Assembly (NCBI GenBank): GCA_038246345.1 | Contig: JBBRWA010000001.1 | Coordinates: forward strand, 1-57,063 | Direction: 5' to 3' | Origin: Chitinophagales bacterium | GTDB lineage: Bacteria; Bacteroidota; Bacteroidia; Chitinophagales; Saprospiraceae | DNA length: 57,063 nucleotides | In this document: piece by piece, positions 1,909 through 30,909 of the stretch | Layout: the number at the start of each line of letters is the position of its first letter | How positions within the stretch are numbered: position 1 is the first letter of the stretch | Notes under the pieces: generated by a model | The model's database searches: none | The model's input: only the letters and a program-made list of their open reading frames with translations | What the model was told of the DNA's origin: nothing | Made by a program: the position numbers and the translations under genes

Positions 1909-2718
1909 ATGCAACAAGAAGACCTTGCTCAACTCACCCAGCGCGCCTGCAAAGCAGTGGAAGAAACCGCCACTTTCATCCAACAAGAAGCTGGTAAAGT
2001 GCAAAGCGGCCAAATAGAAGAAAAATTCCTCAACGGCTTGGTCAGTTATGTAGACCGCACTGCGGAGGAAATGCTCGTGGAGCGGCTCTCGGCCATCCTT
2101 CCGGGGGCAACCTTCATCACGGAAGAAGAAACCGTGGCACAAGGCAGCAGCGACCTGCAATGGATCATTGACCCGCTGGACGGCACCACCAATTTTTTGT
2201 ACAATGTGCCGCAGTATTCCATCAGTGTCGGCTTAAAAGCAGGCGATGAACTCGTGCTCGGCATCGTACACCATGTGCCCGCCAAGGAGCTTTTTTATGC
2301 CTGGAAAGGCGGCGGTGCCTGGTGCAATGGCCAGCCCATACGCGTAAGCAACCGCAGCAACATGCGGCAAGCATTGGTCGCGACGGGATTTCCTTACTAC
2401 GATTTTGAGCGTTCCGAAGCCTGGTTCGCAGCCATAAAAGTATTTATGGAACAAAGTCGCGGCATTCGGCGCTTCGGCTCGGCTGCGCTGGATCTGGCCT
2501 GGGTGGCCTGTGGCAGGTTCGATGTGTTTTTTGAATACGGCCTCAACGCCTGGGATGTTGCGGCAGGGGCGGTACTGGTTCGGGAGGCTGGCGGGCAGGT
2601 ATGTGATTTCTCTGGCGGAGATGATTTTATTGACAAAAGGGAGCTGTTTGCTGCCAATGCTGGGGTTTTTGAGGCTGCGATGGGGATTGTGAAAAAGGCG
2701 TTTGGTAAAACCTCGTAG
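1909..2718 (+). CDS. suhB: inositol monophosphatase family protein (SuhB-like)
   Basis: 269-aa ORF with IMPase motifs WIIDPLDGTTNF, ATGFPY and GSAALDLAWVACGRFD. Confidence 0.85.
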   Translation: MQQEDLAQLTQRACKAVEETATFIQQEAGKVQSGQIEEKFLNGLVSYVDRTAEEMLVERLSAILPGATFITEEETVAQGSSDLQWIIDPLDGTTNFLYNVPQYSISVGLKAGDELVLGIVHHVPAKELFYAWKGGGAWCNGQPIRVSNRSNMRQALVATGFPYYDFERSEAWFAAIKVFMEQSRGIRRFGSAALDLAWVACGRFDVFFEYGLNAWDVAAGAVLVREAGGQVCDFSGGDDFIDKRELFAANAGVFEAAMGIVKKAFGKTS

Positions 2719-2798
2719 GTCTTAAACCTCAGAACCCCCTACCCTAAAAGCGCCGCTTTTAGGGTAGGGGGTTCTGAGGTTTAAGACCTACGAGGTTT
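2708..2798. repeat. perfect 91-nt palindrome (45-bp arms, 1-nt centre at 2753)
   Basis: aaacctcgtaggtcttaaacctcagaaccccctaccctaaaagcg / c / exact reverse complement. The left arm contains the last 11 nt of the suhB-like CDS, including its TAG at 2716-2718. Confidence 0.9.
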
Positions 2799-5026: not shown

Positions 5027-6310
5027 ATGAAAATATTGAAACTTATGCTTTGCTGCGCTATGCTGAGCAACCAGACATTTGCCCAAAACTGGACTACCTT
5101 GAATATTCCGAATGCCGGACGCTACGACGACTTGTTTTTCCTAAACGATTCTGTCGCCTGGGCCTGCAATAGCCAAGGGCAATCGTACAAAACGACCAAC
5201 AGCGGCCAATCATGGGTCAATTACCCGGTGTTTCCGGGCGACTATCTGCGCAGCATTAAATTTATGGATGCCGACACGGGTTTCTGTGGCGGGCTGGATA
5301 ATGGAAGTTATTTGTTCAGGTCCACCAACGGGGGACAAACCTGGACAAACATCACCAATAAAATTCCCGGCTTGTCGGGCGGTATTTGCGGACTATCTTG
5401 TCCGGGGGGAAAGGTTATATATGGCAGCGGTTATTTTGGCTCTCCGGCACATATTATAAAAAGTATCGATGGCGGCATTTCCTGGCAAAAGATAAACATG
5501 TCTGCTCAGGTATTATCTTTGGTCGATATCTTATTCACCAGCCAGGATACAGGCTGGGTAAGCGGAAGAGCCCTTCAGGATGGCGGCGGTGTTATTTTAC
5601 ATACTACTGATGGAGGCTCCAGTTGGCAAACAGTACACGATACTGGCATTCACGGCGATTACGTCTGGAAAATTCAGCGCTTGGATGCACAAAACTGGTT
5701 CGCTTCTGTTGAAAGGGATAACACCATTGGAGCCCAAACCAATATCCTTAAAAGCACCGATGGCGGTATTTCCTGGCAAACAATTTTAGTCAGCAACAGC
5801 TACCATAGGATCCAGGCGATAGGATTTGTTACCCCGCAGCATGGATGGGCAGGAGACACCAGACTTTTTGAAACAACCAACGGCGGCCAGTCCTGGCAGG
5901 ACATCAACCCTGGTTTGGGTATTGGCTACGCATTTAACCGCTTTGTGCGAATAAGTGACAAAAAAGCCTTTTTAACGGGGGGTAGGGTGTATCAATTCAA
6001 TGCCCCTTCAAGTGCTGCAGTAGATCCAATACCACCGGATGCCAACCATGACTTCCATGGCTTAACGGTATCACCCAACCCGACCAGCGACAAGGTTCAA
6101 ATCTCCATCACCTTGCGGCAAAAGACCCATGTAATTCTAAAAGTTTACGCCTTCAATGGCGGCTATGAGGAATTGCTTTGGACGGGAGAGCATGCCGAGG
6201 GCGACTATCTCTTGCAAGCAAGTCTTGCACACCAGCCAGCAGGCAACTATGTCGTGTATTTGAAAACAAACCACGGCACACAAACCCGGATGGTAACTTT
6301 GATACGGTAG
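5027..6310 (+). CDS. BNR/Asp-box repeat beta-propeller protein (Ycf48-like) with T9SS type-A sorting domain
   Basis: Signal peptide. Repeated S/TxDGGxSW boxes (STNGGQTW, SIDGGISW, TTDGGSSW, STDGGISW, TTNGGQSW). C-terminus LTVSPNPTSDKVQISI...GNYVVYLKT. Confidence 0.8.
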   Translation: MKILKLMLCCAMLSNQTFAQNWTTLNIPNAGRYDDLFFLNDSVAWACNSQGQSYKTTNSGQSWVNYPVFPGDYLRSIKFMDADTGFCGGLDNGSYLFRSTNGGQTWTNITNKIPGLSGGICGLSCPGGKVIYGSGYFGSPAHIIKSIDGGISWQKINMSAQVLSLVDILFTSQDTGWVSGRALQDGGGVILHTTDGGSSWQTVHDTGIHGDYVWKIQRLDAQNWFASVERDNTIGAQTNILKSTDGGISWQTILVSNSYHRIQAIGFVTPQHGWAGDTRLFETTNGGQSWQDINPGLGIGYAFNRFVRISDKKAFLTGGRVYQFNAPSSAAVDPIPPDANHDFHGLTVSPNPTSDKVQISITLRQKTHVILKVYAFNGGYEELLWTGEHAEGDYLLQASLAHQPAGNYVVYLKTNHGTQTRMVTLIR

Positions 6311-6511
6311 ACGGTAGACGGTAGACGGTGGACGGTGGGCGTTGGACGGTGGGCGGTTTGCACGGCGGTGTTTTTAGGCTTGGCATTTGTGTTTCAGCAC
6401 CCTTGATGTATCAAATTGATCGTTGGCTAAAGGCGCTGAAACACAAATGCTATTAGGTATTGAAATGTTGGGCCCCGTCCACCGTCTACCGTCTACCGTC
6501 TACCGTCTACC
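6306..6511. repeat. family A heptad-armed palindromic element, copy A1
   Basis: Left arm is 7 heptads (ggtagac x3, ggtggac, ggtgggc, gttggac, ggtgggc). Then ggtttgcac... inner gtgtttcagc/gctgaaacac pair. Right arm is gtccacc plus gtctacc x4. Confidence 0.9.
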
Positions 6512-6515: not shown

Positions 6516-7604
6516 CTACACCTCTTCCGGCCCTTCCCCAACCCAGTCCTGCTGCACCGCATTGTCTTCACAGTGCTCCAGCAATTGCTCGTCTATAAAC
6601 GCCCGCACTTCGTGTACGATATTGCCGGGGTAAAGTAAGTGCACATTTGGGCCAGCATCCAAAGTGAAATACACCGGATTGCCCGTATCGTGGCGGTATT
6701 GCCGTACTTTTTCAATGATGGCCAAAGAGCCAGGGCGCATAAGCGTGTAAGAAGGGTTGCTGGCCATCATCAGGGCGTGCAGGGTCAGGGCTTCGTCTTC
6801 CGCGATTTTACCAAACGCTTCAACGTCTCCAGCCCGCAACACATCCAGCAGTTTGCCGAGTCGCGCCCGCGCCTGGGCGTAGCGCGGCTCGGAAAATGGG
6901 TTGCCGTCCATCAGTTCATGGCCAGCACGGCTGCTAACAGCCTTTTCTTCTCGACTGACCAACAGAATATCATCGTGAAAATCTTTGAAGGTTTCGTGCA
7001 GCAGGTGATCCACCGGGATGGCAAATTCGTTGCTGCTGCCTTCCAACTGCAACGTTTCGCCCCACACTGCCGCTTGCGGGAAAATGGAGCGACAAGCTGA
7101 ACCACTGCCCAAACGCGCCAGATAAGAGGCTTTTTTATCATAAGCTGCCGGATCTTTCAAGGTTCCAAAAAGCTCGTCTTCCAGCGAGCACAGACACAAG
7201 GCCAGGGCCGACATGCTGGAGGCTGATGAAGCAATGCCCGCCGAATGGGGAAAGGAATTGCCGGATTGAACCGACAATTTCAGTTGTTTCAAAAATGGAT
7301 AAATGGGCAACAAGCTTTGCAAATATTCGAGGATTTTAGCGCAAAAAGCTTCGTTTTCTTGTTGGTGAAATAAAAATTCAAGCTCGATCTGCCCGTCGGG
7401 TTGGCCTTCTCTGAATTCATAATTGAGCATGGTATCTGTGAAGGACGCGGAAAGCGTCAAGCTCAGGGAAGGATTTCTAGGTAATTGAATGCCGTATTTG
7501 CCCCAATATTTAATGATGGCGATGTTGCTGGGGGAGCGCCAAGTGATGCTTCCGGCTTCAGGGATGTTGGATGAGTCGATGATAAGACGTGAATTCTCGT
7601 ACAT
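6516..7604 (-). CDS. mvaD: diphosphomevalonate (mevalonate diphosphate) decarboxylase
   Basis: 362-aa ORF with hallmark NIAIIKYWGK, GHMP-kinase-like SAGIASSASSMSALA, and RLGSGSACRS. Confidence 0.85.
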   Translation of the reverse strand: MYENSRLIIDSSNIPEAGSITWRSPSNIAIIKYWGKYGIQLPRNPSLSLTLSASFTDTMLNYEFREGQPDGQIELEFLFHQQENEAFCAKILEYLQSLLPIYPFLKQLKLSVQSGNSFPHSAGIASSASSMSALALCLCSLEDELFGTLKDPAAYDKKASYLARLGSGSACRSIFPQAAVWGETLQLEGSSNEFAIPVDHLLHETFKDFHDDILLVSREEKAVSSRAGHELMDGNPFSEPRYAQARARLGKLLDVLRAGDVEAFGKIAEDEALTLHALMMASNPSYTLMRPGSLAIIEKVRQYRHDTGNPVYFTLDAGPNVHLLYPGNIVHEVRAFIDEQLLEHCEDNAVQQDWVGEGPEEV

Positions 7605-7824: not shown

Positions 7825-8649
7825 ATGTGGCAAAGAATCCGGCGCTTGGGCGTTGAACTATATGCGTTTTTTACAACGCCTTTCGTGCTCAAAAACTGCC
7901 TGAGCATGCTGGGCTTAATGGCGGGCATACTCATGCTTACCTTTTGGTGGCTTAAGTGCTACACCAACCACGGCGATAGCGTGCAGGTGCCGAGCTACGT
8001 GGGCATGAGCTTCCGGGAAGCTGCCCGAAAAGCCCGCTCCCGCGACTTTGGGGTTGCCGTAAGCGACTCACTCTATGTACCGGGAAAACCGCCAGGCGAA
8101 ATCGTATCGCAAGACCCAAAGGCCGAAAGCCGGGTAAAAGAAGGGCGTACGATATATTTTACCGTAACCAAAAACAACCCCGACATCATCAAGCTCCCTG
8201 ATTTGGCGGGCAGCGACGACTATGAACTATACAGCCGAAAATTGAGCCGTTTGGGATTAAAACCACGCATTGTAGCGCGTGTCCCCGATCCGAAACTCGG
8301 ACCAAATGTCATCGTGGATGTAATGTATCACGGCGATACCATTACTCGAAAAATTCGATACGGAGTTCCGGTTGAAATGGGTTCCACCATTGATTTTATT
8401 GTGAGTGAGGAGGTTACGCTCACCGTCAACATCCCCGAATGTATCGGACAAACACTGGATGCGGCCAAATTTTTGATCCAAACCAGCGAACTAAATGTCG
8501 GCACCGTCATTCCCGATGGCACCGTTACCAAAGACGACCTCAATGCCTACGTGTACCGCCAGAGCCCGAAGTATGATGCGAACGGCACCATGCGCAAAGG
8601 GGAACAAATTGACCTTTATATCACGGCTGAAAAGCCCCCAAATAATTAA
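7825..8649 (+). CDS. PASTA domain-containing membrane protein
   Basis: N-terminal TM helix followed by three PASTA-like units (VPSYVGMSFREAARKA..., LPDLAGSDDYELYSRKLSRLGL..., IPECIGQTLDAAKFLI...). Confidence 0.75.
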   Translation: MWQRIRRLGVELYAFFTTPFVLKNCLSMLGLMAGILMLTFWWLKCYTNHGDSVQVPSYVGMSFREAARKARSRDFGVAVSDSLYVPGKPPGEIVSQDPKAESRVKEGRTIYFTVTKNNPDIIKLPDLAGSDDYELYSRKLSRLGLKPRIVARVPDPKLGPNVIVDVMYHGDTITRKIRYGVPVEMGSTIDFIVSEEVTLTVNIPECIGQTLDAAKFLIQTSELNVGTVIPDGTVTKDDLNAYVYRQSPKYDANGTMRKGEQIDLYITAEKPPNN

Positions 8650-8683
8650 TTTGACAATTTGACAATTTGACAATTTGACAATT
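8648..8683. repeat. tandem octamer array (AATTTGAC x4.5)
   Basis: aatttgac repeated four times plus aatt. It begins inside the TAA stop of the PASTA gene (8647-8649). Confidence 0.9.
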
Positions 8684-8749
8684 ATTAAGGATTTGTGATA
8701 AGCTGGGACCTTTTTCTTCCCGGACAAAATAAGGTCGCCAGCTCCCAAG

Positions 8750-8794
8750 CACTCATTCACCACTCACCACTCATCTCTCATCACTCATCACTCA
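8750..8794. repeat. family D tandem heptad array (TCAYCAC/CACTCAT), copy D1
   Basis: cactcat tcaccac tcaccac tcatctc tcatcac tcatcac tca. It ends 4 nt before the rhodanese ATG at 8799. Confidence 0.85.
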
Positions 8795-14440: not shown

Positions 14441-15772
14441 TTGCCCTGGCATAGAGTTGCAATCACAAATAGTTTGACATTGAAAACGAAATTTTTAAAA
14501 CCGATAAACACCCCGGAGGGACTAAGCTTTTGGAGCGCATGCCTACTGGTGGTCAGCATGGTGGTTTCGCCATTTTTGCTGTCGATCAGCATGTGGGGAC
14601 TCGTAGCAGCAGCCCTTTGGAATGTGGCAGCAAAATTATGTCAGGAAACGCCAGGAGTGTTCCTAAATTCGACCAACACCTGGAAAAAGGCACTGCTGCG
14701 CTCCTTCGAAAATCTCTGGGCAAACAAAAGTTTGACCCTTATGTCGCTCCTGCTGCTGGTGCCGGCATTGAGCATTTTTTGGAGCGAAGACCTAAGTTAT
14801 TGGCTTCGGGTAACGCAGGTGCGGCTCCCCTTTTTGGTGCTGCCCTGGGCATTTGCCAATCTGCCTGTATTGCAGGAACAAGACCACAAAAAGGTGCTAT
14901 ACCTATTGGTGTGGTTTATGGTATTGGTATGTATCGGCGTGGGCATTAACTTTTTATTGCACTACAACGAAATCATAGAAAAACTGGGGCATGGGCAGCC
15001 CATGCCCGTGCCAAGGCAGCATGTTCGTTTTAGCCTGGTGCTTGCTACTGCGATTATTGCTGGCGCCTGGCTATGGCGCACCCGCTTTTATGTGAAATTC
15101 CCTTGGGAACGGCAAGCCTTGGCGATTGCCCTAGCATTCCTTTTTCTATTTATCCATGTCCTTTCTGTGCGCGGGGGGCTTGCTGTTTTATATGCAGCGC
15201 TCCTGGTCTCCATTGCCTGGTACATTCAGCAAACCAAGCGTTGGGCCGTTGGCATCGTCGCCATAATATCCCTTTTCCTGTTGCTCTGGGCTGCTGTAGA
15301 AACCATACCAAGTCTTCGGCAGCGCGTTGCTTACATGCAATACGATTGGAAAAAATATAAAGCCGACGAAGGGGAGACTTATTCAGACGCAGAAAGGTGG
15401 ATATCCCTAAAGGTCGGATTCAGTATATGGGAAAAAAGCCCCTTGCTTGGCACTGGCGCCGGCGATTTGGAGGATGAGGTGATCCGCACAACAGCAGAAA
15501 AATTTCCGGATTATGCTGAAACACCCAAACTGCCGCACAACCAATGGATACACATCATGGCCAGCACGGGATTGTTGGGTTTAGCCCTAAGTCTGGTCGG
15601 TTTTTTTGCGCCTGTTTTCTCCCAAAAAAATCGAAAGAAGTACCTGTTTGTCATCTTTCAGGTCATGGTCTTTACCACCTTTATTATTGAATGCACGCTG
15701 GAAAACGCCATTGGGGTTTCGTGGTATCTTTTTTATACGCTCTGGTTTTTGACTATTGACGGTAGACGGTAG
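14441..15772 (+). CDS. O-antigen ligase (Wzy_C)-like polytopic membrane protein
   Basis: About 10 TM segments with a loop GTGAGD...PHNQWIHIMASTGLLG typical of O-antigen ligase-like proteins. The start is uncertain. The stop TAG lies in the second heptad of A2. Confidence 0.6.
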   Translation: MPWHRVAITNSLTLKTKFLKPINTPEGLSFWSACLLVVSMVVSPFLLSISMWGLVAAALWNVAAKLCQETPGVFLNSTNTWKKALLRSFENLWANKSLTLMSLLLLVPALSIFWSEDLSYWLRVTQVRLPFLVLPWAFANLPVLQEQDHKKVLYLLVWFMVLVCIGVGINFLLHYNEIIEKLGHGQPMPVPRQHVRFSLVLATAIIAGAWLWRTRFYVKFPWERQALAIALAFLFLFIHVLSVRGGLAVLYAALLVSIAWYIQQTKRWAVGIVAIISLFLLLWAAVETIPSLRQRVAYMQYDWKKYKADEGETYSDAERWISLKVGFSIWEKSPLLGTGAGDLEDEVIRTTAEKFPDYAETPKLPHNQWIHIMASTGLLGLALSLVGFFAPVFSQKNRKKYLFVIFQVMVFTTFIIECTLENAIGVSWYLFYTLWFLTIDGRR

Positions 15773-15926
15773 ACGGTGGACGGTTTGGACAGCGATTCGA
15801 GTTGCTTATGGGATGCGTTTTTCAGCACTATTGGCCAGAAAGTGGACGCTGAACCAAACGTGCTGAAAACCGATACCAAACGTGAAAACCAACGTTGTGC
15901 AAACCGTCCACCGTCTACAGTCCACC
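15761..15926. repeat. family A element, copy A2
   Basis: ggtagac ggtagac ggtggac ggtttggac...tttttcagcac...gtgctgaaaacc...tgtgcaaacc gtccacc gtctaca gtccacc. Confidence 0.9.
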
Positions 15927-15935: not shown

Positions 15936-17621
15936 CTAAATCCGCTCCCGGACATACGCCAATATCTCCCCTTCCATCTTTATCGCCTTTTCTAGTATCG
16001 CTTCGCTATCTGCCACCACCTTAACTGCGTACACCTTATCGTCCAGGCCGCCCGTGTTGATTTTCACATTCAGGTAGGCACCGTACACGGCCACGCGGGC
16101 GCACAATGCCCCCACCGCAGCATCCGTGATGGAGTTGGGGTTACCCGTTTCTACCATTTGTTTGATTAGGGGGAAGCTTTCCATGCCCAGTTGCATCACC
16201 TTGAAAGGTATCTCGATGGCTGTTTTTGTTGCCGCCTGGATGGCCGCTTTGCGGGCCGCTTTCTCTGCATCGTTCGATTTGGGCAAGCCGAAAGCATTCA
16301 TAATGAGGGTGAAGGCATCCGTATCTTCATCAACGGCGCGGAGCAGGGCATCCTTGAGTTTTTGGCCTTTTTCGGCGGCATCCGAGAATTCTTCCCAGCG
16401 CTCGTCCCAGCCGCGCTTGTGGCTGCTGAGGTTGGCCGACATGGCGGCCAGGGAAACACCCAGTGCGCCCACGTAGGCACTGATGGAGCCCCCGCCTGGC
16501 GCGGGGCTTTCGCTTGCTGTTTCGTCGGCAAAAGCTACCAGGTCTTTTTTGATCAACTTATTGGCCGCCGCCGCGTCGCCTTTTTCCAGGTTGTATTCGA
16601 TGATTTTTTGCTGCGGATCAAAAGGGGCCAATTCGTCGAGGCCCATTGATTTTACGGCAATTTTTAGCAACTCTTGTTCCGAAACACCGACGCTGCGCTG
16701 TTGTTTTTTTAAAAAATAACGCCCTGCTTCCAGCATCACTTCCAGCGGCACCAATCCGACCAATTCCGAACCCGTGACGCGCATGCCGCGGCGATCGGCG
16801 CTTTCATGGCAAGCTTCAAAGGCCAAATGCAGGGGCGTGAGCCGGGTATCGGTGATGTTCATGGAAATTTGCGCCACGCCGTATTCCTCAATAAACCAGC
16901 CGATGGCCTTTACACCTTTCAACACGCCAGGTTGGCGTTTAGGTTCGCCATTGGCATCCTTCATGGGCTTTCCGGTGGCGGGGTCGTTCATCACACGGCC
17001 TTTTTCCCGGATGTCGAAAGCCACGGAATTGGCGCGACGCACCGATGTGGTGTTCAAATTGACGTTGTAAGCAATCAGAAAATCACGGGCGCCAATAGCA
17101 GTCGCCCCGCTTTTGGCATTGAACGCAGCGGGACCAAAATCCGGTTTCCAATCCGGCTTTGTGAATTTATCAGCCAGCCCCTCGTACTCCCCAGCGCGTA
17201 CGGTGGCCAGGTTCTTGCGTTCCGGGCGACTAGCGGCTGATTCATACAAATAAATAGGTAAATTCAAATCGCGGCCCACACGCGCGCCGAGCTTGCGCGC
17301 CCAGGCAGCCGTTTCTTCCATGGAAATATTGGCGATCGGGATGAGGGGGCAAACGTCAGTGGCACCCATGCGCGGGTGCTCGCCGGTGTGTTTGCTCATG
17401 TCAATAACCGCACAGGCAGTTTTTATCGCTTGAAATGCCGCCTCAAGCACAGCTTCCGGCTCGCCCACAAAAGTGACCACCGTTCGGTTGGTCGCTTTTC
17501 CGGGATCTACGTCGAGTAATTTCACGCCGTCAACGGCCTCAATAGCATCCGTGATTTGTTTTATAACGGCCATATCGCGCCCTTCTGAGAAGTTGGGGAC
17601 GCATTCAATGAGTTGTTTCAT
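15936..17621 (-). CDS. ftcD: bifunctional glutamate formimidoyltransferase / formimidoyltetrahydrofolate cyclodeaminase
   Basis: 561-aa ORF. The N-terminus LIECVPNFSEGRD is the formiminotransferase hallmark. The C-terminal ~200 aa are helical and cyclodeaminase-like. Confidence 0.85.
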   Translation of the reverse strand: MKQLIECVPNFSEGRDMAVIKQITDAIEAVDGVKLLDVDPGKATNRTVVTFVGEPEAVLEAAFQAIKTACAVIDMSKHTGEHPRMGATDVCPLIPIANISMEETAAWARKLGARVGRDLNLPIYLYESAASRPERKNLATVRAGEYEGLADKFTKPDWKPDFGPAAFNAKSGATAIGARDFLIAYNVNLNTTSVRRANSVAFDIREKGRVMNDPATGKPMKDANGEPKRQPGVLKGVKAIGWFIEEYGVAQISMNITDTRLTPLHLAFEACHESADRRGMRVTGSELVGLVPLEVMLEAGRYFLKKQQRSVGVSEQELLKIAVKSMGLDELAPFDPQQKIIEYNLEKGDAAAANKLIKKDLVAFADETASESPAPGGGSISAYVGALGVSLAAMSANLSSHKRGWDERWEEFSDAAEKGQKLKDALLRAVDEDTDAFTLIMNAFGLPKSNDAEKAARKAAIQAATKTAIEIPFKVMQLGMESFPLIKQMVETGNPNSITDAAVGALCARVAVYGAYLNVKINTGGLDDKVYAVKVVADSEAILEKAIKMEGEILAYVRERI

Positions 17622-17679: not shown

Positions 17680-17862
17680 GGTAGACGGTGGACGTTAGAC
17701 GGCGGATGGTTTGCTCGGCTTTTGTGATGACTTAATCATTTGTTTTCCAGCACTTAAGTCAATATGTACTAATTATTTTTTTGATTTAAGTGCTGAAAAT
17801 CAATGCTAATCAATAAAGCAGATGCTGTGCAGCCGTCTACCGTCCACCGTCTACCGTCCACC
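17680..17862. repeat. family A element, copy A3
   Basis: ggtagac ggtggac gttagac ggcggat ggtttgctc...ttttccagcac...gtgctgaaaatcaatgctaat...gtctacc gtccacc gtctacc gtccacc. Confidence 0.9.
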
Positions 17863-18492
17863 GTTTTTCAGAACCGTTACCACATGGTCTTCAATTTCAG
17901 TCCCCACCGGATGCAAATAACTACGGATCCCCAGCGCCGCTGCTGCGGCAATATTTTCCGGAACATCATCAAAAAATATAGACTCTTCGGGTAAAATCTC
18001 CGCATCGGCCAATACATACTCGTAAATGGCGGTATCGGGCTTCCGAAGCCGGATCAAATGAGAGAAGTACACCCCATCGAAAAATCGGGATTCGTAGTCA
18101 TTGATGCCGTGCGCACGGGGCATATAATCAGCGATCCAACGCTCGTGCAGGTCGTTTATATTGCTGAGCAAGAACACCTTGTATTGTTGACGGAGCCGCA
18201 GCAGCATATCGAAACGGTGGCGCGGCATGTCAATAAATATAGCGTTCCAGGCGGCGATAACATCTGATTCAGCGAGCGGAGGATAGGCTGCGGTACAAAT
18301 GCTATCGACAAACTCTGCGGTGCTGATACCGCCCGTTTCATACATTTCAAAAAGCATGGCGCGGCGAAGCTTTTCTACCGCACTGTCATAATTATCGCCA
18401 AAAAACGGGCGGAGGTTGCGCTCAATAGCAGGCAGGTCAATGTCGAAAAGCACATTCCCGAAATCGAAGATGATGTTTTTTATTACAGGCAT
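17851..18492 (-). CDS. HAD-superfamily hydrolase (subfamily IA-like)
   Basis: Motif I-like IIFDFGNVLFD, motif II LLSNIN, and motif III/IV region FFDDVPENI. The stop TAG and the last 4 codons lie in the A3 right arm. Confidence 0.75.
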   Translation of the reverse strand: MPVIKNIIFDFGNVLFDIDLPAIERNLRPFFGDNYDSAVEKLRRAMLFEMYETGGISTAEFVDSICTAAYPPLAESDVIAAWNAIFIDMPRHRFDMLLRLRQQYKVFLLSNINDLHERWIADYMPRAHGINDYESRFFDGVYFSHLIRLRKPDTAIYEYVLADAEILPEESIFFDDVPENIAAAAALGIRSYLHPVGTEIEDHVVTVLKNGGR

Positions 18493-24700: not shown

Positions 24701-24808
24701 AAGTGCGCAGGAAAGCGAGTTTTCTTGCCAAACCTAAGCGCTGCTTTGTAAAGTTTAGCATTAGCGGTTAGTGCGTTCCTTCATTATTAATTGAAAAGCT
24801 TACTTCCT

Positions 24809-24941
24809 CTTACCCTGGGTTGTCTTGCTGTAGGCATCTGCCCACGTCTTGTGCGCTGAAAGCACAATAGGCTGCAGCATCGCGGTATTCTTTCCACTAG
24901 TGACGTGGACAGATGCTTACAGCAAGACAACTCAGGGTAAG
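24809..24941 (+). other. long imperfect hairpin (about 39-bp stem, 53-nt loop), candidate structured RNA or palindromic element
   Basis: cttaccctgggttgtcttgctgtaggcatctg-c-ccacgtc pairs with gacgtgg-a-cagatgcttacagcaagacaactcagggtaag. Both mismatches in the 32-bp part are G-U on the + strand. There is an inner hairpin ttgtgc-gctgaaa-gcacaa. Confidence 0.6.
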
Positions 24942-25063
24942 GGGACGAAAGTTCTGAACACGCTTCTCCCTTTTTCTCACAACAACAGCGCAACATTCCA
25001 TTCTCCGCCATTTGGATTTACCCCCAATGGCCCGTTTTGTATTTTCAAAACATGATTCTTTTC

Positions 25064-27277
25064 ATGAAAAAAATATTTTCACTCAGCATATTGCTGCTGG
25101 CTGCCCTGTGGGCCGCTGCGCAAACCTCAAAAATTGACACTACCTTAAATGTGGTACCCCTCAACGAAGCCGTTATTTCTGTCAGCCGTGGCGTACAGGC
25201 CAAAAAGGGCGTGGCGCAACAAGTTAAAGTAATTCGACGCTCCGAAATTGAATTCGCCAATGCCCAATCAACGGCTGATTTGCTGTCGGGCACCGGGCAG
25301 GTGTTTGTCCAAAAAAGCCAGCAAGGCGGCGGAAGCCCGGTGCTGCGCGGCTTTGAAGCCAGTCGCGTACTGATCGTCGTGGATGGTGTGCGCATGAACA
25401 ACGCCATTTACCGCTCCGGTCACCTGCAAAATGTGATCACGATGGACAATGCCGCGCTGGATCGGGCGGAGGTGTTGTTTGGGCCAGCTTCAACGGTGTA
25501 TGGCTCGGATGCCTTGGGCGGCGCCATTTGTTTTTTTACCAAAAACCCAAATTTTGCGGCAGAAGGAGAACGCCTGAACCTGGGAGCCAACGCCTTTTTC
25601 CGTTACGGCACGGTGAACGAAGAAAAAACCGGACACCTTGATTTTAACATTGGTTGTAAAAAACTCGCTTCGTTTACGTCATTTACTGTAAGCGATTTCG
25701 GCGATTTGCGCATGGGCGAAAATGCGGGCTCGAAAGGTGTTTTTGGCCAACGCGATTTTTATGTGGAACGCATAAACGGGAAGGACTCACTGGTACGCAA
25801 CAGCGATCGGTACTTGCAAAAGTTTAGCGGGTTTAAGCAATACGATTTCTTAGAAAAAATTGTGTTCAAACAAAATGCCCGTACAAGCCACACGTTGAAT
25901 TTCCAATACAGCACTTCAACCAACATCCCCCGTTACGACCGCCTGACGGACAAAAGTGCCAGCGGCCTGGCTTCAGCAGAATGGTACTACGGCCCACAAG
26001 ACCGAATGATGGCAGCATACACCCTAAACCTGAAAAATGTGGGCATGTTCAACAGCTTAAACATCACCGCCAGCTACCAGGATATTGAGGAAAGCCGCCA
26101 CAACCGCAATTTTGGCAACAGTCGCCGTAACGATCGGGTAGAACAGGTAAAAGTGTATGGCCTGCTCGCTGAATTGGTGAAAGTATGGGAAACTCAAAGC
26201 CTGCGCATCGGCCTTGATGGGCAGTACAATGACGTTACTTCTACCGCCCAACGTGTCAACGTCAATACAGGAGAAGTGACAACTCAAAGCACCCGCTACC
26301 CCGATGGCGGTAGCGCCATGCTAAGTGCAGCAGTTTATGCTACCCATTTTTGGAAGCCGGGCAGCGACAGCAAGTGGTCGTTCAGCGAAGGACTGCGGGC
26401 TGGTTTTTCCAGCCTGAATGCCGCATTTTTGAGTCGGGAATTTTACCCCTTCTCCTTTGACAAGGTAGAACAAAGCTCCCCGACTTTCTCTGGAAACCTG
26501 GGTGCCGTTTGGAACAGCACGGAAGACTGGCGCGTGGCCATCAATGCCTCCACGGGTTTCCGGGTGCCGAATGTCGACGACCTGACCAAATTATTTGATT
26601 CCCAAAAGGGCAGCGTCGTGGTACCCAACACTGATTTGAAGCCAGAAAAAACGATGAACCTGGATTTAAGCCTGACGCACCCAATTTCTGACAACGTTCG
26701 CTGGGAAAATGTGGCCTGGATCACCGGATTCCGCGATGCCATCGTGACCGATATTTTCCACTTCAACGGGCAAGACAGCATCCTTTATGACGGTGAGTTG
26801 AGCAGGGTATTGGCCAGCCAGAACAAACGGAATGCCAATCTTTTTGGGTTCAGCAGCATCCTTGAAGCGGATGTGTACCCAAATTTGGCCATGTACGCTT
26901 CGTTGACTTATACCAAAGGACGCATTAAAGACGATGCCCGCGGCGATACTCCCCTTGATCATATTCCGCCGATGTATGGCAAATTCGGCTCCCGTTGGCA
27001 CAATACCCGTGGCTCTGTGGAAGCGTTCGTATTGTTCAACGGCAAAAAGAAACTGGAAGATTACAGCCTGGAAGGAGAGGACAACCTGCAATATGCGCCT
27101 GCGAATGGAACCGCAGCTTGGTACACCGCCAATATTCGTGGGGCCTTCAAATTCAATAAAAATCTGACCTTGCAAGCAGGCATCGACAATATTTTTGATA
27201 CCAATTACCGCGCGTTTGCGTCTGGTATCAATGCGCCTGGGAGGAATTTCTGGGTGACGGTGCGGGCAGGGTTTTAG
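25064..27277 (+). CDS. TonB-dependent receptor
   Basis: Signal peptide MKKIFSLSILLLAALWAAAQ. Plug region QQGGGSPVLRGFEASRVLIVVDGVRMNNAIYRSGHLQN. C-terminal beta-barrel ends in F. I chose the start at ATG 25064. Confidence 0.85.
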   Translation: MKKIFSLSILLLAALWAAAQTSKIDTTLNVVPLNEAVISVSRGVQAKKGVAQQVKVIRRSEIEFANAQSTADLLSGTGQVFVQKSQQGGGSPVLRGFEASRVLIVVDGVRMNNAIYRSGHLQNVITMDNAALDRAEVLFGPASTVYGSDALGGAICFFTKNPNFAAEGERLNLGANAFFRYGTVNEEKTGHLDFNIGCKKLASFTSFTVSDFGDLRMGENAGSKGVFGQRDFYVERINGKDSLVRNSDRYLQKFSGFKQYDFLEKIVFKQNARTSHTLNFQYSTSTNIPRYDRLTDKSASGLASAEWYYGPQDRMMAAYTLNLKNVGMFNSLNITASYQDIEESRHNRNFGNSRRNDRVEQVKVYGLLAELVKVWETQSLRIGLDGQYNDVTSTAQRVNVNTGEVTTQSTRYPDGGSAMLSAAVYATHFWKPGSDSKWSFSEGLRAGFSSLNAAFLSREFYPFSFDKVEQSSPTFSGNLGAVWNSTEDWRVAINASTGFRVPNVDDLTKLFDSQKGSVVVPNTDLKPEKTMNLDLSLTHPISDNVRWENVAWITGFRDAIVTDIFHFNGQDSILYDGELSRVLASQNKRNANLFGFSSILEADVYPNLAMYASLTYTKGRIKDDARGDTPLDHIPPMYGKFGSRWHNTRGSVEAFVLFNGKKKLEDYSLEGEDNLQYAPANGTAAWYTANIRGAFKFNKNLTLQAGIDNIFDTNYRAFASGINAPGRNFWVTVRAGF

Positions 27278-27439: not shown

Positions 27440-28726
27440 ATGTCCGACATCATTTTTTCCCTGATCGACAAAGAACTCGCGCGCCAGCGCCACGGCGCAG
27501 AACTCATTGCTTCTGAAAACTTTACAAGTCAGGCCGTACTGGATGCGATGGGTTCCTGCCTGACCAATAAATACGCGGAAGGGTATCCGGGCAAACGCTA
27601 TTACGGCGGTTGTGCGGTGGTGGATGAAGTGGAAACAATAGCCATAGACCGGGCCAAGGAAATCTTTGGTGCTGCCTGGGCCAATGTGCAGCCGCACTCC
27701 GGCGCGCAAGCCAATGCGGCGGTTTTCCTAGCTTGCTTGCAACCGGGCGATACTATTCTAGGTTTTGACCTGGCGCACGGTGGCCACTTGTCGCACGGCT
27801 CACCGGTGAACTATTCGGGCAAGGTGTACAGCCCCGTTTTTTACGGCGTTGAAAAAGAAACTGGCCTTGTGGATATGGATAAAGTAGAAACCATCGCACT
27901 GGCAAGCAAACCAAAGTTGATCATTTGTGGCGCATCGGCCTACTCCCGTGATTGGGATTACGCGCGTTTCCGCCAAATTGCCGATACCGTAGGCGCGCTC
28001 CTGTTGGCAGATGTATCGCACCCGGCGGGCCTCATTGCGGCCAAATTATTGAATGACCCATTGCCACATTGCCATATCGTGACCACCACGACCCACAAAA
28101 CACTCCGTGGACCAAGGGGCGGACTTATTATGATGGGCAAAGATTTTGACAATCCCTGGGGCCGCACCACGAAAAAAGGCAACACCATTCAAATGTCGAG
28201 CATCCTTGACAGCGGGGTGTTCCCTGGAATGCAAGGCGGGCCACTGGAGCACGTGATCGCTGCCAAGGCAGTCGCTTTTGGGGAAATCTTACTGCCTTCT
28301 TTCAGGGCTTACGGACAACAAGTCATAAAAAACGCGCAAGCAATGGCCGCCGAGTTTGTCTCCCGTGGCTACGACATTATCTCCGGCGGTACCGACAACC
28401 ACATGATGCTGCTTGATTTGCAAAGCAAAAATGTAACGGGCAAGGCAGCCGATCATGCCCTGGGCCTGGCCGATATCACGGTGAATAAAAACATGATTCC
28501 TTTTGACCCCCAACCGCCCATGACTACTTCTGGTATCCGGGTAGGAACGGCAGCAGTAACCACCCGCGGATTCAAAGAAGAGGATTGCCGCCAACTCGCC
28601 GTGTGGATGGATGAAGTGATGAGCAGCCCGGATGATGCCAGTGTGCAGGCCAAGGTGAAGGGTGCGGTGAATGACTATATGAAGGGGTTCCCTTTGTATG
28701 AAGGAACGGTGGACGGTGGACGGTAG
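27440..28726 (+). CDS. glyA: serine hydroxymethyltransferase
   Basis: [18 protein letters not shown] and PLP-lysine motif [14 protein letters not shown]. The last 6 codons (TVDGGR) and the TAG lie in the A4 left arm. Confidence 0.95.
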
Positions 28727-28884
28727 ACGGTTTGCACAGCATTCGTTTTTTTCTTGTATTGGTTGTTTCAGCACCTAAATTCAACATTTGTTGAGCTATT
28801 CTTGACTAAAGTGCTGAAAATCAATGCCAATGGTAAGAACAAAAATTGTGCAAACCGTCCACCGTCTATCGTCCACCGTCTACC
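28708..28884. repeat. family A element, copy A4
   Basis: ggtggac ggtggac ggtagac ggtttgcacagc...tgtttcagcac...gtgctgaaaatcaatgccaat...tgtgcaaacc gtccacc gtctatc gtccacc gtctacc. Confidence 0.9.
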
Positions 28885-29486
28885 GTTTTAAGCTTTCTCC
28901 GCCATTCCACATACCCCATCACGGCCAAAATCAGGAATACGATATACTGGAAACTGGTAAAAACATAGCCTTTGATGAAATACAGTGGGATTGAAGCCAG
29001 GTTCGTCACGATCCACCAAATCCAGTTTTCCAGTTTTTTGCGGGTCATCAGCCACATGCCCGTATAGGCGGAGGCAGCGGCAAAACCGTCGGCCAGGGGC
29101 ACGGTACTGTCGGTAAAACGGCTTAAAATATACCACAATACCAGCCAGCTTCCCGCAAAAAACAGCAAGGAATTGCGCCACTCCGATGCTGAAGAAGCCG
29201 TTATTTGCAGCCCCCCTGCCCCCTCCGTTTTTCTGGACCACATTACCCAGCCAATGACGCTCATCACGGTGTAGTAGGTGTTCACGCTGGCTTCGGCATA
29301 AAGTCCGGCAACGAGGCATAAGTAAATGTACAGGGAGGTATTGACGAGGCCCGTGGGGTACACCAGAATGTTTTCTGCGCGGGAGTACAACACGCTGACG
29401 ATGCCAAAAATGACCGCGATAAACTCAAGCCAGGAGGTGGCAAAGAGGCCTTCAAGTAATTGGCGCCAAATTTCTGGGAAGGACAT
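28866..29486 (-). CDS. pnuC: nicotinamide riboside transporter PnuC family
   Basis: 206-aa, about 7-TM ORF with WIWWIVTNLASIPLYFIKGYVFTSFQY, characteristic of PnuC. The C-terminal TVDGGR and the stop lie in the A4 right arm. Confidence 0.8.
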   Translation of the reverse strand: MSFPEIWRQLLEGLFATSWLEFIAVIFGIVSVLYSRAENILVYPTGLVNTSLYIYLCLVAGLYAEASVNTYYTVMSVIGWVMWSRKTEGAGGLQITASSASEWRNSLLFFAGSWLVLWYILSRFTDSTVPLADGFAAASAYTGMWLMTRKKLENWIWWIVTNLASIPLYFIKGYVFTSFQYIVFLILAVMGYVEWRRKLKTVDGGR

Positions 29487-29530
29487 AAGGGGCGAGCGCG
29501 GATAAGCACATATTACGCGTGAAAAATTTT

Positions 29531-29642
29531 AAACACATAGACACATAGACACATAGAAAACATAGACGCATAGAGACATAGAAAACATAGGTTTTGAGTG
29601 CGTAATGCTATGTTTTCTATGTCCCTATGTGTCTATGTGTTT
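29531..29642. repeat. family B palindromic element with CATAGA octad arms, copy B1
   Basis: Left arm aaacacatagacacatagacacatagaaaacatagacgcatagagacatagaaaacatagg. Loop is about 17 nt. Right arm ctatgttttctatgtccctatgtgtctatgtgttt. Confidence 0.9.
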
Positions 29643-29655
29643 TAAAAATATGTGC

Positions 29656-30909
29656 TTACAAATCCATCATTAACAGGATCGGATCTTCCAGCAACTCCTT
29701 CACCTTAACCAGGAAGGTCACAGAAGTGCTGCCATCAATAACCCGGTGGTCATAGCTGAGTGCCAGGTACATCATGGGGCGCACTTCCACTTTGCCATCC
29801 ACTGCAATGGGGCGATCCTTGATGGCGTGCATGCCCAGTATGGCACTTTGTGGCTCGTTGATAATTGGTGTGCTCATCAAGCTGCCAAAAACGCCGCCGT
29901 TGGTGATGGTAAAGGTACCGCCCGACATTTCTTCGAGCGAGAGTTTCCCGTCGCGGGCTTTGATGGCAAGTTCCTTTATTTTTAGTTCAATATCACTGTA
30001 ATGCAGGCTTTCCACGTTGCGGATGGGCGGCACCACCAATCCGGTCGGCGTGCTGATGGCAAAGCTGATGTCGGCGTAATCGTGGTACACAAAATCATCG
30101 CCATCGATCATCGCATTCACGTCGGGCATTTCGAGCAGCACCTTGGCACATGCCTTGGCGAAGAGCGACATAAAACCCAGTTTGACGCCGTATTTCTTGA
30201 CAAAAGCCTCCTGGTATTTTTCCCGGAAGGCCATGATGGCGCTCATGTCCACCTCATTGAAAGTGGTAAGCATGGCGGTATTATTCTTGGCGCTCACGAG
30301 GCGTTTGGCGATGGTACGGCGCATGCGGCTCATGCGTTCGCGGCGATCGTTGCGGGAAAACGCAGCAACAGGCGCAGCTTGAATTGGCGGCTTGCTTGGC
30401 GCTGCAACAGGTGCAGGAGAAGCTGGAGTAGTTGCCGGTGGTGCAGCAACCGCTTTTTGCGCATCTTCTTTGGTGATGCGGCCATCGCGGCCGGTGCCGT
30501 TCACATCTTCTGGATTCACCCCTGCTTCCGTCAGCATTTTGGCTGCAGCGGGCGAGGGTGTACCTGTTGCGTAAGAAGTTGTTTTTTCAGCCACTTTTTC
30601 ACTCGTTTGAGCCACAGCAGGCGCAGCAGCCTCCGCTTGTTTTGAACTGCCTGTTGCAGCCGGAGCGCTGGCATCGCTGTCGATTGTGGCAAAGAGCGCA
30701 CCAATGGCAAGGTCTTCGCCTTCCTGCGCTACCCAGGTCAATTTTCCGCTGGAGTCGGCAGATAATTCCTGATTGGCTTTTTCGGTTTCAATTTCACACA
30801 GCGGCTCGTCCATAGCAACGATGGAGCCATTGGGCTTGAGCCATTTAGAAAAGGTAACACTGGATATAGATTCACCCAAATTTGGGATTTTCAGTTCAAC
30901 AACAGGCAT
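29656..30909 (-). CDS. sucB: dihydrolipoyllysine-residue succinyltransferase-like E2 (2-oxoglutarate dehydrogenase E2)
   Basis: Lipoyl motif [11 protein letters not shown], an Ala/Pro linker, and catalytic SYDHRVIDG. The substrate assignment is a family-level guess, and no sucA is adjacent. Confidence 0.75.

What the first reader, a model, noticed from the sequence alone, without database searches (positions are those of the whole stretch)
6306..6511. Family A: conserved three-tier palindrome (heptad arms / GGTTTGCAC clamp / GTTTCAGCAC-GTGCTGAAAA inner stem)
The four copies are at 6306-6511, 15761-15926, 17680-17862 and 28708-28884, each 166-206 bp. All share the same order. First come 3-7 GGTRGAC heptads, then GGTTTGCAC(AGC). 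About 20 nt later comes TGTTT(T)CAGCAC, then a variable 20-45-nt loop. After that come GTGCTGAAAA(TCAATGCYAAT), TGTGCAAACC and the complementary GTCYACC heptads. Arm length varies between copies, which fits slippage, while the clamp and inner stem are conserved. All four copies have the same core orientation. In 3 of 4 the right arm is followed by GTTTT. The element has no coding capacity. As RNA it would fold into a ~60-80-bp interrupted hairpin.
Basis: seen in the sequence. Interest (0 to 1): 0.75.

Follow-up and report, generated by a model that had tools for sequence, protein, structure and literature searches.

The report
Heptad-armed palindromic repeat at gene ends
This is a previously undescribed family of about 170-200-bp palindromic repeats in uncultured Saprospiraceae bacteria that has been inserted right at the ends of genes, sometimes giving two converging genes the same short tail and stop codon; it behaves like a mobile or REP-like repeat, not a structured RNA.

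Summary
Four copies sit at the stated coordinates with the stated three tiers, far above chance. About 130 more copies occur in Saprospiraceae MAGs and metagenome contigs. Geometry is strict: GGTTTGCAC, 28-29 nt, TTTCAGCAC, loop, GTGCTGAAA, 28-29 nt, GTGCAAACC.

The RNA-structure reading is not supported. Across 35 non-redundant cores, 72.8% of cells pair, the same as when partners are shuffled between copies (73.0%). The palindrome is therefore a property of the family consensus. Clamp and inner stem are conserved as sequence. "Same orientation" is ill-defined, and copy 2 scores as inverted. GTTTT after the arm is not a family feature.

Elements abut gene 3' ends: 10 convergent, 13 tandem and 0 divergent contexts. 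In the window, 5 of 7 abutting genes stop on a TAG inside a heptad. Two relatives have an empty SHMT/PnuC junction with overlapping genes. In the window both genes end in the heptad-coded tail TVDGGR*. Other relatives carry different hairpins at that junction. Arms and cores are modular.

Best explanation: a REP/MITE-like, foldback-type interspersed element. Its mobilising enzyme is unknown, and a secondary role at transcript 3' ends is possible. It is a new variant of a known kind.

The parts
6306..6354 (.). Copy 1 left arm: 7 GGTRGAC-type heptads. The TAG of the first heptad (6308-6310) is the stop codon of the BNR/T9SS-tail protein gene 5027..6310 (+).
6355..6363 (.). Copy 1 left clamp GGTTTGCAC
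6392..6441 (.). Copy 1 inner stem TTTCAGCAC (6392-6400), 32-nt loop, GCGCTGAAA (6433-6441)
6467..6511 (.). Copy 1 degenerate right clamp (GTTGGGCCCC, 6467-6476) and right arm of 5 GTCYACC heptads (6477-6511). The mevalonate-diphosphate decarboxylase gene 6516..7604 (-) stops 5 nt outside.
15761..15790 (.). Copy 2 left arm (3 heptads, 15761-15781) and clamp GGTTTGGAC (15782-15790). The TAG of heptad 2 (15770-15772) stops the Wzy_C gene 14441..15772 (+).
15820..15868 (.). Copy 2 inner stem TTTCAGCAC, 31-nt loop, GTGCTGAAA. By the weak polarity signal this copy is inverted relative to the other three.
15897..15926 (.). Copy 2 right clamp GTGCAAACC (15897-15905) and right arm (15906-15926). The FTCD gene 15936..17621 (-) stops 10 nt outside.
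17680..17716 (.). Copy 3 left arm (4 partly degenerate heptads) and clamp GGTTTGCTC. It faces the 5' end of FTCD, whose start codon is 58 nt away.
17745..17798 (.). Copy 3 inner stem TTCCAGCAC, 36-nt loop, GTGCTGAAA
17827..17862 (.). Copy 3 degenerate right clamp GTGCAGCC (17827-17834) and right arm (17835-17862). The TAG of the second heptad read on the minus strand (17853-17851) stops the HAD hydrolase gene 17851..18492 (-).
28708..28737 (.). Copy 4 left arm (3 heptads) and clamp GGTTTGCAC. SHMT (27440..28726, +) reads through 2.5 heptads, gaining the tail TVDGGR and the stop TAG at 28724-28726.
28766..28819 (.). Copy 4 inner stem TTTCAGCAC, 36-nt loop, GTGCTGAAA
28848..28884 (.). Copy 4 right clamp GTGCAAACC and right arm (4 heptads). 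PnuC (28866..29486, -) reads into it, gaining the same tail TVDGGR and the stop TAG at 28868-28866.

Best explanation
Family A is a non-coding, interspersed palindromic repeat of the REP/MITE kind with a 'foldback' build.

Anatomy:
- A core of about 115-130 bp has four sequence-conserved 9-nt blocks at fixed spacing: GGTTTGCAC, 28/29 nt, TTTCAGCAC on one arm, and their complements on the other.
- The core is wrapped in inverted arrays of slippage-prone heptads (GGTRGAC).

Shown here:
- Whole cores have been copied to unrelated loci.
- Copies have been gained at gene 3' ends in some lineages and not in others.
- When a copy lands in or against the end of a coding region, the TAG carried by the GGTAGAC heptads, read inward on either strand, ends the truncated or extended gene.
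- Arms and cores are separable modules.

Inferred:
- The conserved blocks are recognition sites for the unknown protein that mobilises or maintains the element. They are not RNA base pairs kept by compensatory change.
- Arm arrays grow and shrink by replication slippage.
- Once in place, the long hairpin may also mark or protect transcript 3' ends, but that is not what keeps the middle tier as it is.
For: Dispersed family:
- About 129 positions in 87 held loci, in at least two species-level MAGs (CAYVPM01, CAZULM01) and many metagenome contigs.
- Paralogues with unrelated flanks share 82-88% identity over the whole core including the loop, for example window copy 4 against L132.

Gain and loss at one junction:
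- L146 (SHMT 86% identical) and L154 (89%) have SHMT and PnuC overlapping by 26 and 13 nt with nothing between them.
- In the window the element lies exactly there. Both genes end in TVDGGR* read from the heptads.
- 419-422-aa SHMTs ending FPLY(EG/EA/GA) are the norm among relatives, so the tail is derived.

Turnover:
- The same junction holds other hairpin families in L155, L147 and L148.
- The HAD-FTCD spacer holds other families in L150 and L151.

Context:
- 10 convergent, 13 tandem and 0 divergent contexts.
- Abutting stops fall at -19..+16, with about 16 abutting stops at +2, +9 or +16, the TAGs of heptads 1-3.
- The same TVDGGR* tail ends an aminotransferase in L145.

Blocks conserved as sequence without covariation.

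Modularity:
- GGTRGAC arms occur with other cores (L013, L029, L053, L068, L075) or with a gene as cargo (L052).
- The Family A core occurs with (ATGAGTT)n arms and with (GTTGTTC)n junctions in a tandem triplication.

Slippage: heptad number differs among orthologous loci.
Against: - No transposase or RAYT gene was found next to or between copies in about 1.2 Mb of held sequence. Genes bracketed by two copies are ordinary.
- No target-site duplication could be read at the single filled/empty junction.
- No identical or near-identical paralogues were found, so there is no sign of current activity.
- The block-versus-middle-tier conservation contrast could also reflect selection at each locus for a host function.
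- Recurrent occupation of one junction by four unrelated hairpin families could mean the host benefits from a hairpin there, rather than insertion bias.
- Arms carry TAG in only part of their heptads. On average 1.35 of 3 frames are stopped inward.
- The enrichment of TAG heptads on arms that face gene 3' ends is not significant (36% vs 21%, p=0.11).
Confidence: 0.6

Rival explanations
1. Host-selected gene-end module. The hairpins are kept because they end or insulate transcription, or stabilise or process mRNA 3' ends, between closely packed and especially convergent genes. Mobility is secondary.
For: - Every element with both flanks resolved abuts at least one gene 3' end, and none lies between divergent genes.
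- No separate canonical terminator is present at those gene ends.
- One SHMT/PnuC junction has independently acquired four different hairpin types in related genomes.
- The single strands fold extremely stably.
- REPs with the same distribution are thought to act this way (PMC3733652).
Against: - There is no T-run after the hairpin in most copies.
- There is no compensatory covariation in the stem.
- The better-folding strand does not track the sense strand.
- Relatives do without any spacer at all, with the genes overlapping.
- The distribution is equally expected from purifying selection against insertions in promoters.
Confidence: 0.2
2. Structured non-coding RNA. A discrete small RNA or cis-regulatory RNA folds into the three-tier hairpin, and the core binds a protein as RNA.
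For: - Very low folding energies.
- Conserved blocks at fixed spacing.
- Some copies show one-sided G.U excess, for example L041 (7 vs 1) and L087 (7 vs 1).
Against: - Pairing equals the shuffled-partner control and the covariation score equals the control.
- Own-arm against other-arm complementarity is 59.4% vs 56.8%.
- The element is symmetric, with almost no polarity.
- The wobble asymmetry is marginal and inflated by duplicated loci.
- Rfam gives only sub-threshold hits to generic long-hairpin miRNA models.
Confidence: 0.06
3. Locally generated palindromes. Each locus built its own hairpin by slippage and template switching at gene ends, and the shared blocks reflect a sequence bias of that process and not copying.
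For: - Heptad and octad arrays of many kinds are common in these genomes.
- Some arrays are not even complementary, as at 8648-8794.
- Arm lengths on the two sides are only weakly correlated (r=0.33).
- The native HAD gene end in L150 (GGGCGGTAA) resembles a heptad.
Against: - Unrelated loci share 82-88% identity across about 125 bp of core, including the loop.
- The spacing is identical in 43 unique core sequences.
- The whole arm-plus-core unit is present or absent at the SHMT/PnuC junction.
Confidence: 0.07
4. Array of duplex-DNA binding sites for a chromosomal protein (nucleoid-associated, gyrase/IHF-like as at BIMEs, or a segregation or uptake signal), with four GCAC-containing sites in two-fold symmetry.
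For: - The blocks are conserved as sequence and not as pairs, share the sub-motif T-rich+GCAC, and keep fixed spacing on both arms.
- Tandem clusters resemble BIME arrays.
Against: - There is no direct evidence for a binding protein.
- The blocks hardly occur outside the elements: 6 of 7 exact GTGCTGAAA sites in the window are inside them.
- The reading does not explain the insertion polymorphism or the heptad arms.
Confidence: 0.07

Closest known systems
REP/BIME elements (GTAG- and CGTC-tagged repetitive extragenic palindromes; Di Nocera et al. 2013, PMC3733652)
   Same: - High-copy extragenic palindromes, found mostly between convergent or unidirectional ORFs and often less than 20 bp from the ORF end.
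- They can occur in clusters.
- They differ between related species.
- They are proposed to be mobilised by a dedicated enzyme and to act secondarily on transcripts.
   Different: - REP units are 20-40 bp with one unpaired GTAG or CGTC tag. This element is 166-206 bp or more and three-tiered.
- Its GTAG and CGTC motifs sit inside paired, tandemly repeated heptads.
- No RAYT gene was seen near copies.
- Per that paper, GTAG REPs were found in Proteobacteria, Cyanobacteria, Chloroflexi and the PVC group, and only CGTC repeats in Bacteroidetes.
Bacterial MITEs (e.g. Correia, RUP, and the P. gingivalis MITE with an internal minisatellite, PMC4596501, seen only as a search hit)
   Same: - Small and non-coding, with inverted-repeat ends.
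- Dispersed copies with unrelated flanks.
- Presence/absence polymorphism.
- Can overlap gene ends and supply stops.
   Different: - No target-site duplication and no parent IS were identified.
- The ends are variable-length arrays of 7-nt repeats, not a fixed TIR.
- The same core occurs with three arm types, and the same arms occur with several cores.
Inverted pairs of heptamer tandem repeats in Xanthomonas (GGGAATC; Rehm et al. 2015, PMC4692102)
   Same: - Heptameric tandem arrays, often as convergent pairs on opposite strands (70-75 pairs per genome).
- Intergenic, close to the upstream ORF, with some overlapping the stop codon.
- Array length differs between species while the type is kept.
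   Different: - Those units are G-tract, quadruplex-forming repeats. GGTRGAC has no G-tracts.
- In the passages read, no conserved core between the paired arrays is mentioned.
- Different phylum.
Eukaryotic foldback (FB-type) transposons such as Drosophila FB, Galileo and Tetris (from my own knowledge; titles seen)
   Same: - Long inverted arms built of short tandem sub-repeats.
- Arm length varies from copy to copy.
- The central region is variable or exchangeable.
   Different: - They are eukaryotic, kilobase-scale and linked to identified transposases.
- This is an analogy of architecture only, with no evidence of relatedness.
23S rRNA intervening sequences carrying a four-helix-bundle protein gene (PF05635/TIGR02436)
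   Same: In L052 the same GGTRGAC arms form a long stem around a PF05635 gene, as an IVS stem surrounds its ORF. Other copies of that gene sit in or beside heptad arrays.
   Different: - Family A cores carry no gene.
- The elements are not in rRNA.
- RNase III processing is not shown.

Membership tests
REP (GTAG/CGTC-tagged) elements | Short palindromic unit of 20-40 bp | tested here: not met
   Elements are 166-206 bp in the window. Cores alone are 114-202 bp.
REP (GTAG/CGTC-tagged) elements | A single unpaired GTAG or CGTC tetranucleotide at one end | tested here: not met
   GTAG occurs inside GGTAGAC heptads and CGTC in the complementary array. Both are repeated and lie within the paired arms on both sides.
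REP (GTAG/CGTC-tagged) elements | Located mainly between convergent or unidirectional ORFs, close to ORF ends | tested here: met
   10 convergent, 13 tandem and 0 divergent contexts. Abutting stops lie at -19..+16 nt.
REP (GTAG/CGTC-tagged) elements | Association with a RAYT (IS200/IS605-like tyrosine transposase) gene flanked by the repeats | tested here: inconclusive
   None among the genes bracketed by copies, and none within arms more than 400 nt apart. Only about 1.2 Mb of fragments was searched, not a whole genome.
MITE | Small, non-coding, with terminal inverted repeats | tested here: met
   Inverted arms plus clamps. No ORF is conserved in the core alignment.
MITE | Dispersed copies with unrelated flanks, and presence/absence at orthologous sites | tested here: met
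   Paralogues are 82-88% identical with unrelated flanks. Empty sites are L146 and L154, against the filled window site.
MITE | Target-site duplication | tested here: inconclusive
   The junction reads GAAGGT|TGATTTT (empty) against GAAGGA|ACGGT...ACCGT|TTTAAG (filled). The genomes differ by 11-14% at protein level, so a duplication of 0-3 nt cannot be read.
MITE | A parent autonomous IS with the same ends | not testable with these tools
   It needs a complete genome of the lineage. Nothing similar was found in the plasmid or phage collections.
Intrinsic (Rho-independent) terminator | Short G+C-rich stem with a small loop followed by a T-run | tested here: not met
   The stem is tens of bp with a large interior. 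Only about 5 of 41 copies have GTTTT after the arm. None was called by the scan, whose loop limit would exclude them anyway.
Structured non-coding RNA family | Base pairs kept by compensatory changes; strand-specific | tested here: not met
   72.8% paired against 73.0% in shuffles, and covariation score 0.149 against 0.149. The profile matches both strands. There is no Rfam match at gathering score.
Xanthomonas-type inverted heptamer arrays | Heptamer tandem arrays in convergent pairs near the 3' side of the upstream ORF | tested here: met
   58 GGTRGAC>GTCYACC pairs lie within 400 nt, against 3 in the opposite order. For context.
Xanthomonas-type inverted heptamer arrays | G-tract units able to form quadruplexes | tested here: not met
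   GGTRGAC has no run of three G.
Integron attC site | Imperfect palindrome at the 3' end of promoterless cassettes, arrayed in one orientation next to an integrase | tested here: not met
   The flanking genes are housekeeping genes in mixed, mostly convergent orientation (SHMT, FTCD, PnuC, MVD). No cassette array is present.

The most novel reading that the evidence does not exclude
The heptad-armed hairpins of Saprospiraceae could be one modular system and not a collection of junk repeats.
- The arms would be a generic chassis: a long duplex stem that carries inward-facing stop codons and could be cut or bound as double-stranded RNA, as in rRNA intervening sequences.
- The chassis would hold exchangeable contents: Family A cores, other palindromic cores, or a four-helix-bundle (Avd/IVS-protein-like) gene.
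- The sequence-conserved blocks of Family A would be the docking sites of a dedicated protein, possibly that four-helix-bundle family, which copies or processes the modules.
- Hosts would recurrently recruit such modules to separate overlapping convergent genes.
Probability: 0.12. Interest if true: 0.8.

Novelty: new variant of a known kind. Interest (0 to 1): 0.5.

Why it matters
- **Breadth of the class.** It adds an abundant, architecturally unusual repeat family from a poorly studied, mostly uncultured lineage (Saprospiraceae, Bacteroidota) to the REP/MITE class.
- **A clean example of insertion into overlapping genes.** A palindromic repeat has landed in the overlap of two convergent housekeeping genes and given both the same new C-terminal tail and stop codon.
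- **Rapid turnover.** One gene junction has been occupied by four different hairpin families in close relatives. This makes it a tractable case for asking whether such repeats are tolerated parasites or recruited gene-end signals.
- **Practical consequences.** These elements break short-read assemblies at gene ends; the Logan contig with this SHMT ends exactly at the element. They also create spurious C-terminal extensions in MAG annotations.

Tried and rejected
1. **Strand-specific G.U wobble as evidence for an RNA strand.** MFE comparison looked promising (|ddG| up to 21 kcal/mol). Direct arm-to-arm mismatch counts gave 133 G.T, 116 A.C and 338 transversions, with overdispersion of only p about 0.02-0.04 and duplicated loci included. 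The better-folding strand agreed with the sense strand in 3 of 11 informative tandem contexts. Dropped.
2. **RNAalifold on 35 cores.** It recovered only the invariant inner stem, which is uninformative. It was replaced by own-versus-other partner complementarity and an explicit-structure count.
3. **Polarity marker in the loop (TTGGCCAAAG-like).** It turned out to be part of a further palindromic layer. A global orientation analysis gave only a very weak signal.
4. **REPtron-like arrangement or arm-bracketed transposase.** None was found. One arm-bracketed gene is a PF05635 protein, not a transposase.
5. **Rfam, gathering and permissive thresholds.** Nothing meaningful.
6. **Plasmid and phage collections.** No match.
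7. **Canonical terminator scan.** Not informative for such long hairpins.
8. **Integron attC reading of the 'GTT...' flank.** Rejected on context.
9. **TAG heptads enriched on arms facing 3' ends.** A trend only (p=0.11).
10. **Inward-versus-outward stop codons across arm families.** Only 5 families were detected, split 3:1. Not significant.
11. **Literature searches for this element or its heptad.** No description found.
Full report
**1. The observation.**
- GGTRGACGGTRGAC with one mismatch occurs 22 times against 0.04 expected, and only at these four places.
- Six of the seven exact GTGCTGAAA sites in the window are inside the elements.
- A profile built from many family members finds exactly these four copies in the window, each on both strands.
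- The single strands fold at -88 and -127 kcal/mol, z = -10.8 and -12.5.
- Rfam and tRNA scans are empty. A permissive Rfam scan returns only sub-threshold matches to generic long-hairpin miRNA models.

**2. The family beyond the window.**
- A scan of species-representative genomes for the arm-clamp junction gave 77 loci. Most are from Saprospiraceae or Lewinellaceae MAGs, and the rest are at about the chance level.
- A metagenome scan for a half-element gave 67 more loci.
- Contig Ga0105053_10000019 is the same or nearly the same organism as the window. L096 equals copy 4, and L099 is nearly identical to copy 2.
- From these I extracted 43 unique core sequences, and a profile search gave about 129 positions in 87 loci.
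- The geometry is strikingly fixed: clamp, 28 or 29 nt, inner arm, a loop of 21-110 nt (mostly 30-37), inner arm, 28 or 29 nt, clamp.
- In the family consensus the loop ends are also complementary (CTTAGCCAA..TTGGCTAAG), though a copy's own loop ends pair no better than those of other copies.
- Among representative genomes the core was seen only in CAYVPM01 and CAZULM01. The GGTRGAC arms occur in many more Saprospiraceae and Chitinophagales MAGs around other cores.

**3. Is it a structured RNA? No support.**
- The core is a palindrome, so it matches on both strands, and 'orientation' is hardly defined.
- A global analysis finds a weak polarity: a 1.1% identity advantage against a null of 0.76 +/- 0.06%.
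- RNAalifold recovers only the invariant inner stem.
- I imposed the full three-tier structure on 35 non-redundant cores. 72.8% of cells pair, against 73.0 +/- 0.7% when the 3' letters are shuffled among copies. The covariation score is 0.149 in both. Sliding the register drops pairing to 36-44%.
- A copy's left middle tier is 59.4% complementary to its own right tier and 56.8% to the right tiers of other copies.
- So the palindrome is a feature of the family consensus. Individual copies do not repair their stems. The clamp and inner stem are conserved as sequence.
- One-sided G.U excess exists in some copies but is marginal overall.
- The better-folding strand does not follow the sense strand of the abutting gene.

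**4. Where the copies sit.**
- The window is from a Bacteroidota genome. Evidence includes a T9SS sorting domain, and SHMT and FTCD homologues named Saprospiraceae.
- Copies 1, 2 and 4 lie between convergent genes. Copy 3 lies between two minus-strand genes.
- Five of the seven gene ends that abut the four copies stop on a TAG inside a heptad:

| Gene | Copy and side | Stop |
|---|---|---|
| T9SS-tail protein | copy 1, left | heptad 1 |
| Wzy_C | copy 2, left | heptad 2 |
| HAD hydrolase | copy 3, right | heptad 2 |
| SHMT | copy 4, left | heptad 3 |
| PnuC | copy 4, right | heptad 3 |

- Over the non-redundant set with both flanks resolved there are 10 convergent, 13 tandem and 0 divergent contexts.
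- Stops of abutting genes lie at -19 to +16, and about 16 of them fall at +2, +9 or +16.
- There is no regular T-run after the hairpin. GT after the right arm is simply the end of the last heptad, and GTTTT follows in about 5 of 41 copies.

**5. Gain, loss and turnover.**
- SHMT in relatives is 419-422 aa and ends FPLY(EG/EA/GA). The window protein is 428 aa and ends FPLYEG+TVDGGR.
- In L146 (86% identical SHMT) and L154 (89%), SHMT and PnuC overlap by 26 and 13 nt with no spacer.
- In the window the element lies exactly at that point. Both genes read into an arm and both end TVDGGR*: ACG GTG GAC GGT GGA CGG TAG, and on the other strand ACG GTA GAC GGT GGA CGA TAG. An aminotransferase in L145 ends with the same tail.
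- The same junction carries a (CACAACGA)n-armed hairpin in L155 (91%), a (GGAAATN)n-armed hairpin in L147, and plain hairpins in L148.
- The HAD-FTCD spacer that holds copy 3 carries other hairpin families in L150 and L151, which are 93% and 92% identical in FTCD.
- Core pairs at 93% identity or more always share flanks, so they are orthologues. Pairs with unrelated flanks reach 82-88% over the whole core, including the loop. Cores were therefore copied between loci, but not very recently.
- No target-site duplication could be read at the available divergence.

**6. Modularity.**
- GGTRGAC arms enclose other palindromic cores (L013, L029, L053, L068, L075).
- In L052 they enclose a 123-aa gene of the 23S-rRNA-intervening-sequence or four-helix-bundle family (PF05635, TIGR02436). 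Further copies of that gene sit in or next to heptad arrays.
- Conversely, the Family A core occurs inside (ATGAGTT)n/(AACTCAT)n arms.
- In a direct triplication it is joined through (GTTGTTC/GTTGATA)n to the same GTTTGCAC.
- The arm polarity is nearly invariant: 58 GGTRGAC>GTCYACC pairs against 3 in the reverse order.
- Heptad number differs between orthologous loci (3, 4 and 5 for copy 2 and its orthologues). Left and right arm lengths correlate only weakly (r=0.33, p=0.07). This fits independent slippage on each side.

**7. What mobilises it is unknown.**
- Genes bracketed by two copies are ordinary: Usp, an ECF sigma factor, transporters, TonB-dependent receptors and a tocopherol cyclase.
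- No arm-bracketed transposase was found in about 1.2 Mb of held sequence.
- Plasmid and phage collections have no match.

**8. Comparison with what is known.**
- No paper in the searchable library describes this element or its heptad.
- The genomic distribution matches REPs (PMC3733652), but size, tagging and the missing RAYT do not.
- The behaviour matches MITEs, but neither a TSD nor a parent IS was identified.
- The arms resemble the inverted heptamer-array pairs of Xanthomonas (PMC4692102). Those are G-quadruplex repeats, and no conserved core is mentioned in the passages I read.
- The TAACTGA direct repeats of Beggiatoaceae lie upstream of start codons and are a different thing (PMC4679880).
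- The architecture, with arms of tandem sub-repeats of variable length around an exchangeable centre, is that of eukaryotic foldback transposons. This is an analogy from my own knowledge only.

**9. Verdict.**
- The RNA-structure interpretation is not supported.
- The most likely explanation (about 0.6) is a REP/MITE-like, foldback-type interspersed element. Its conserved blocks are protein recognition sites, and its heptad arms tolerate and repair insertion at gene ends by supplying TAG.
- A host role at transcript 3' ends is a live rival or add-on (about 0.2).
- The idea that the arms are a designed frame-independent stop is only a trend. Arms stop on average 1.35 of 3 frames inward against 0.04 outward. 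The cross-family test (3:1) and the 3'-facing enrichment (p=0.11) are not significant.

Noticed in passing
window 29527-29646 and 39490-39688: A second hairpin family with octad arms (ACACATAG)n / (CTATGTGT)n. The first copy abuts the 3' end of the minus-strand gene 29656..30909.
   Followed up: partly
window 32423-32705 and 46269-46591: A third family with (GTTGTTC/GTTGATA)n / (GAACAAC/TATCAAC)n arms around cores of about 200 bp. The locus at 46269-46591 has nested or duplicated arms. The same heptads form the internal junctions of the Family A triplication in L123.
   Followed up: partly
window 8648-8794: Two tandem arrays that are not complementary to each other, (AATTTGAC)x4.5 and (TCACTCA)x6, flank a small hairpin. 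Both arrays read TGA when read inward. The first array begins at the stop of gene 7825..8649.
   Followed up: no
window 2708-2798: A perfect 45-nt inverted repeat with a 1-nt spacer (AAACCTCGTAGGTCTTAAACCTCAGAACCCCCTACCCTAAAAGCG / complement) lies between two plus-strand genes.
   Followed up: no
window 24799-24951: A 50-nt inverted repeat (88% complementary, 53 nt apart) lies in the 351-nt spacer upstream of the TonB-dependent-receptor-like gene 25037..27277.
   Followed up: no
window 44142-44231: An (ACTCATC)x4.6 array and a 22-nt tandem repeat lie in a long spacer. The heptad is the same type that forms the alternative arms of Family A cores in L080, L109, L133 and L138.
   Followed up: no
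L052 1947-2429 (CAKZSH010000086): GGTRGAC arms bracket a 123-aa PF05635/TIGR02436 (23S rRNA intervening-sequence, four-helix-bundle) gene instead of a palindromic core. Homologues in L045 and L063 also sit within or next to heptad arrays.
   Followed up: partly
L123 9035-9470 (also L131, L092): A direct triplication of the Family A core unit. Units are joined by (GTTGTTC/GTTGATA)n + GTTTGCAC in place of a right clamp and GGTRGAC arms. A fourth copy lies 229 nt further on, beyond a short minus-strand ORF.
   Followed up: partly
L151 4225-4320 (CAZULM010000068): A tandem array of 11-12-nt units (CCTCAGGCACC(C)G) fills the spacer between convergent FTCD and SAM-synthetase genes. Read inward from the SAM-synthetase side, it contains TGA.
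   Followed up: no
L001 (Logan SRR19962013 contig, 3820 bp): The only other contig encoding the identical SHMT ends 5 nt after the SHMT stop, inside the element's left arm. These repeats break short-read assemblies.
   Followed up: no
window 49015-56079: A 2354-aa ORF on the plus strand, the largest in the window. It was not examined.
   Followed up: no
L150 2270-2277 versus window 17851-17862: The native 3' end of the HAD gene in a relative (GGGCGGTAA) resembles one heptad plus stop (GGACGGTAG). The two proteins have C-termini of equal length (..QGIGR* against ..KNGGR*). This could be chance, or a hint that insertion uses microhomology to the arm.
   Followed up: no
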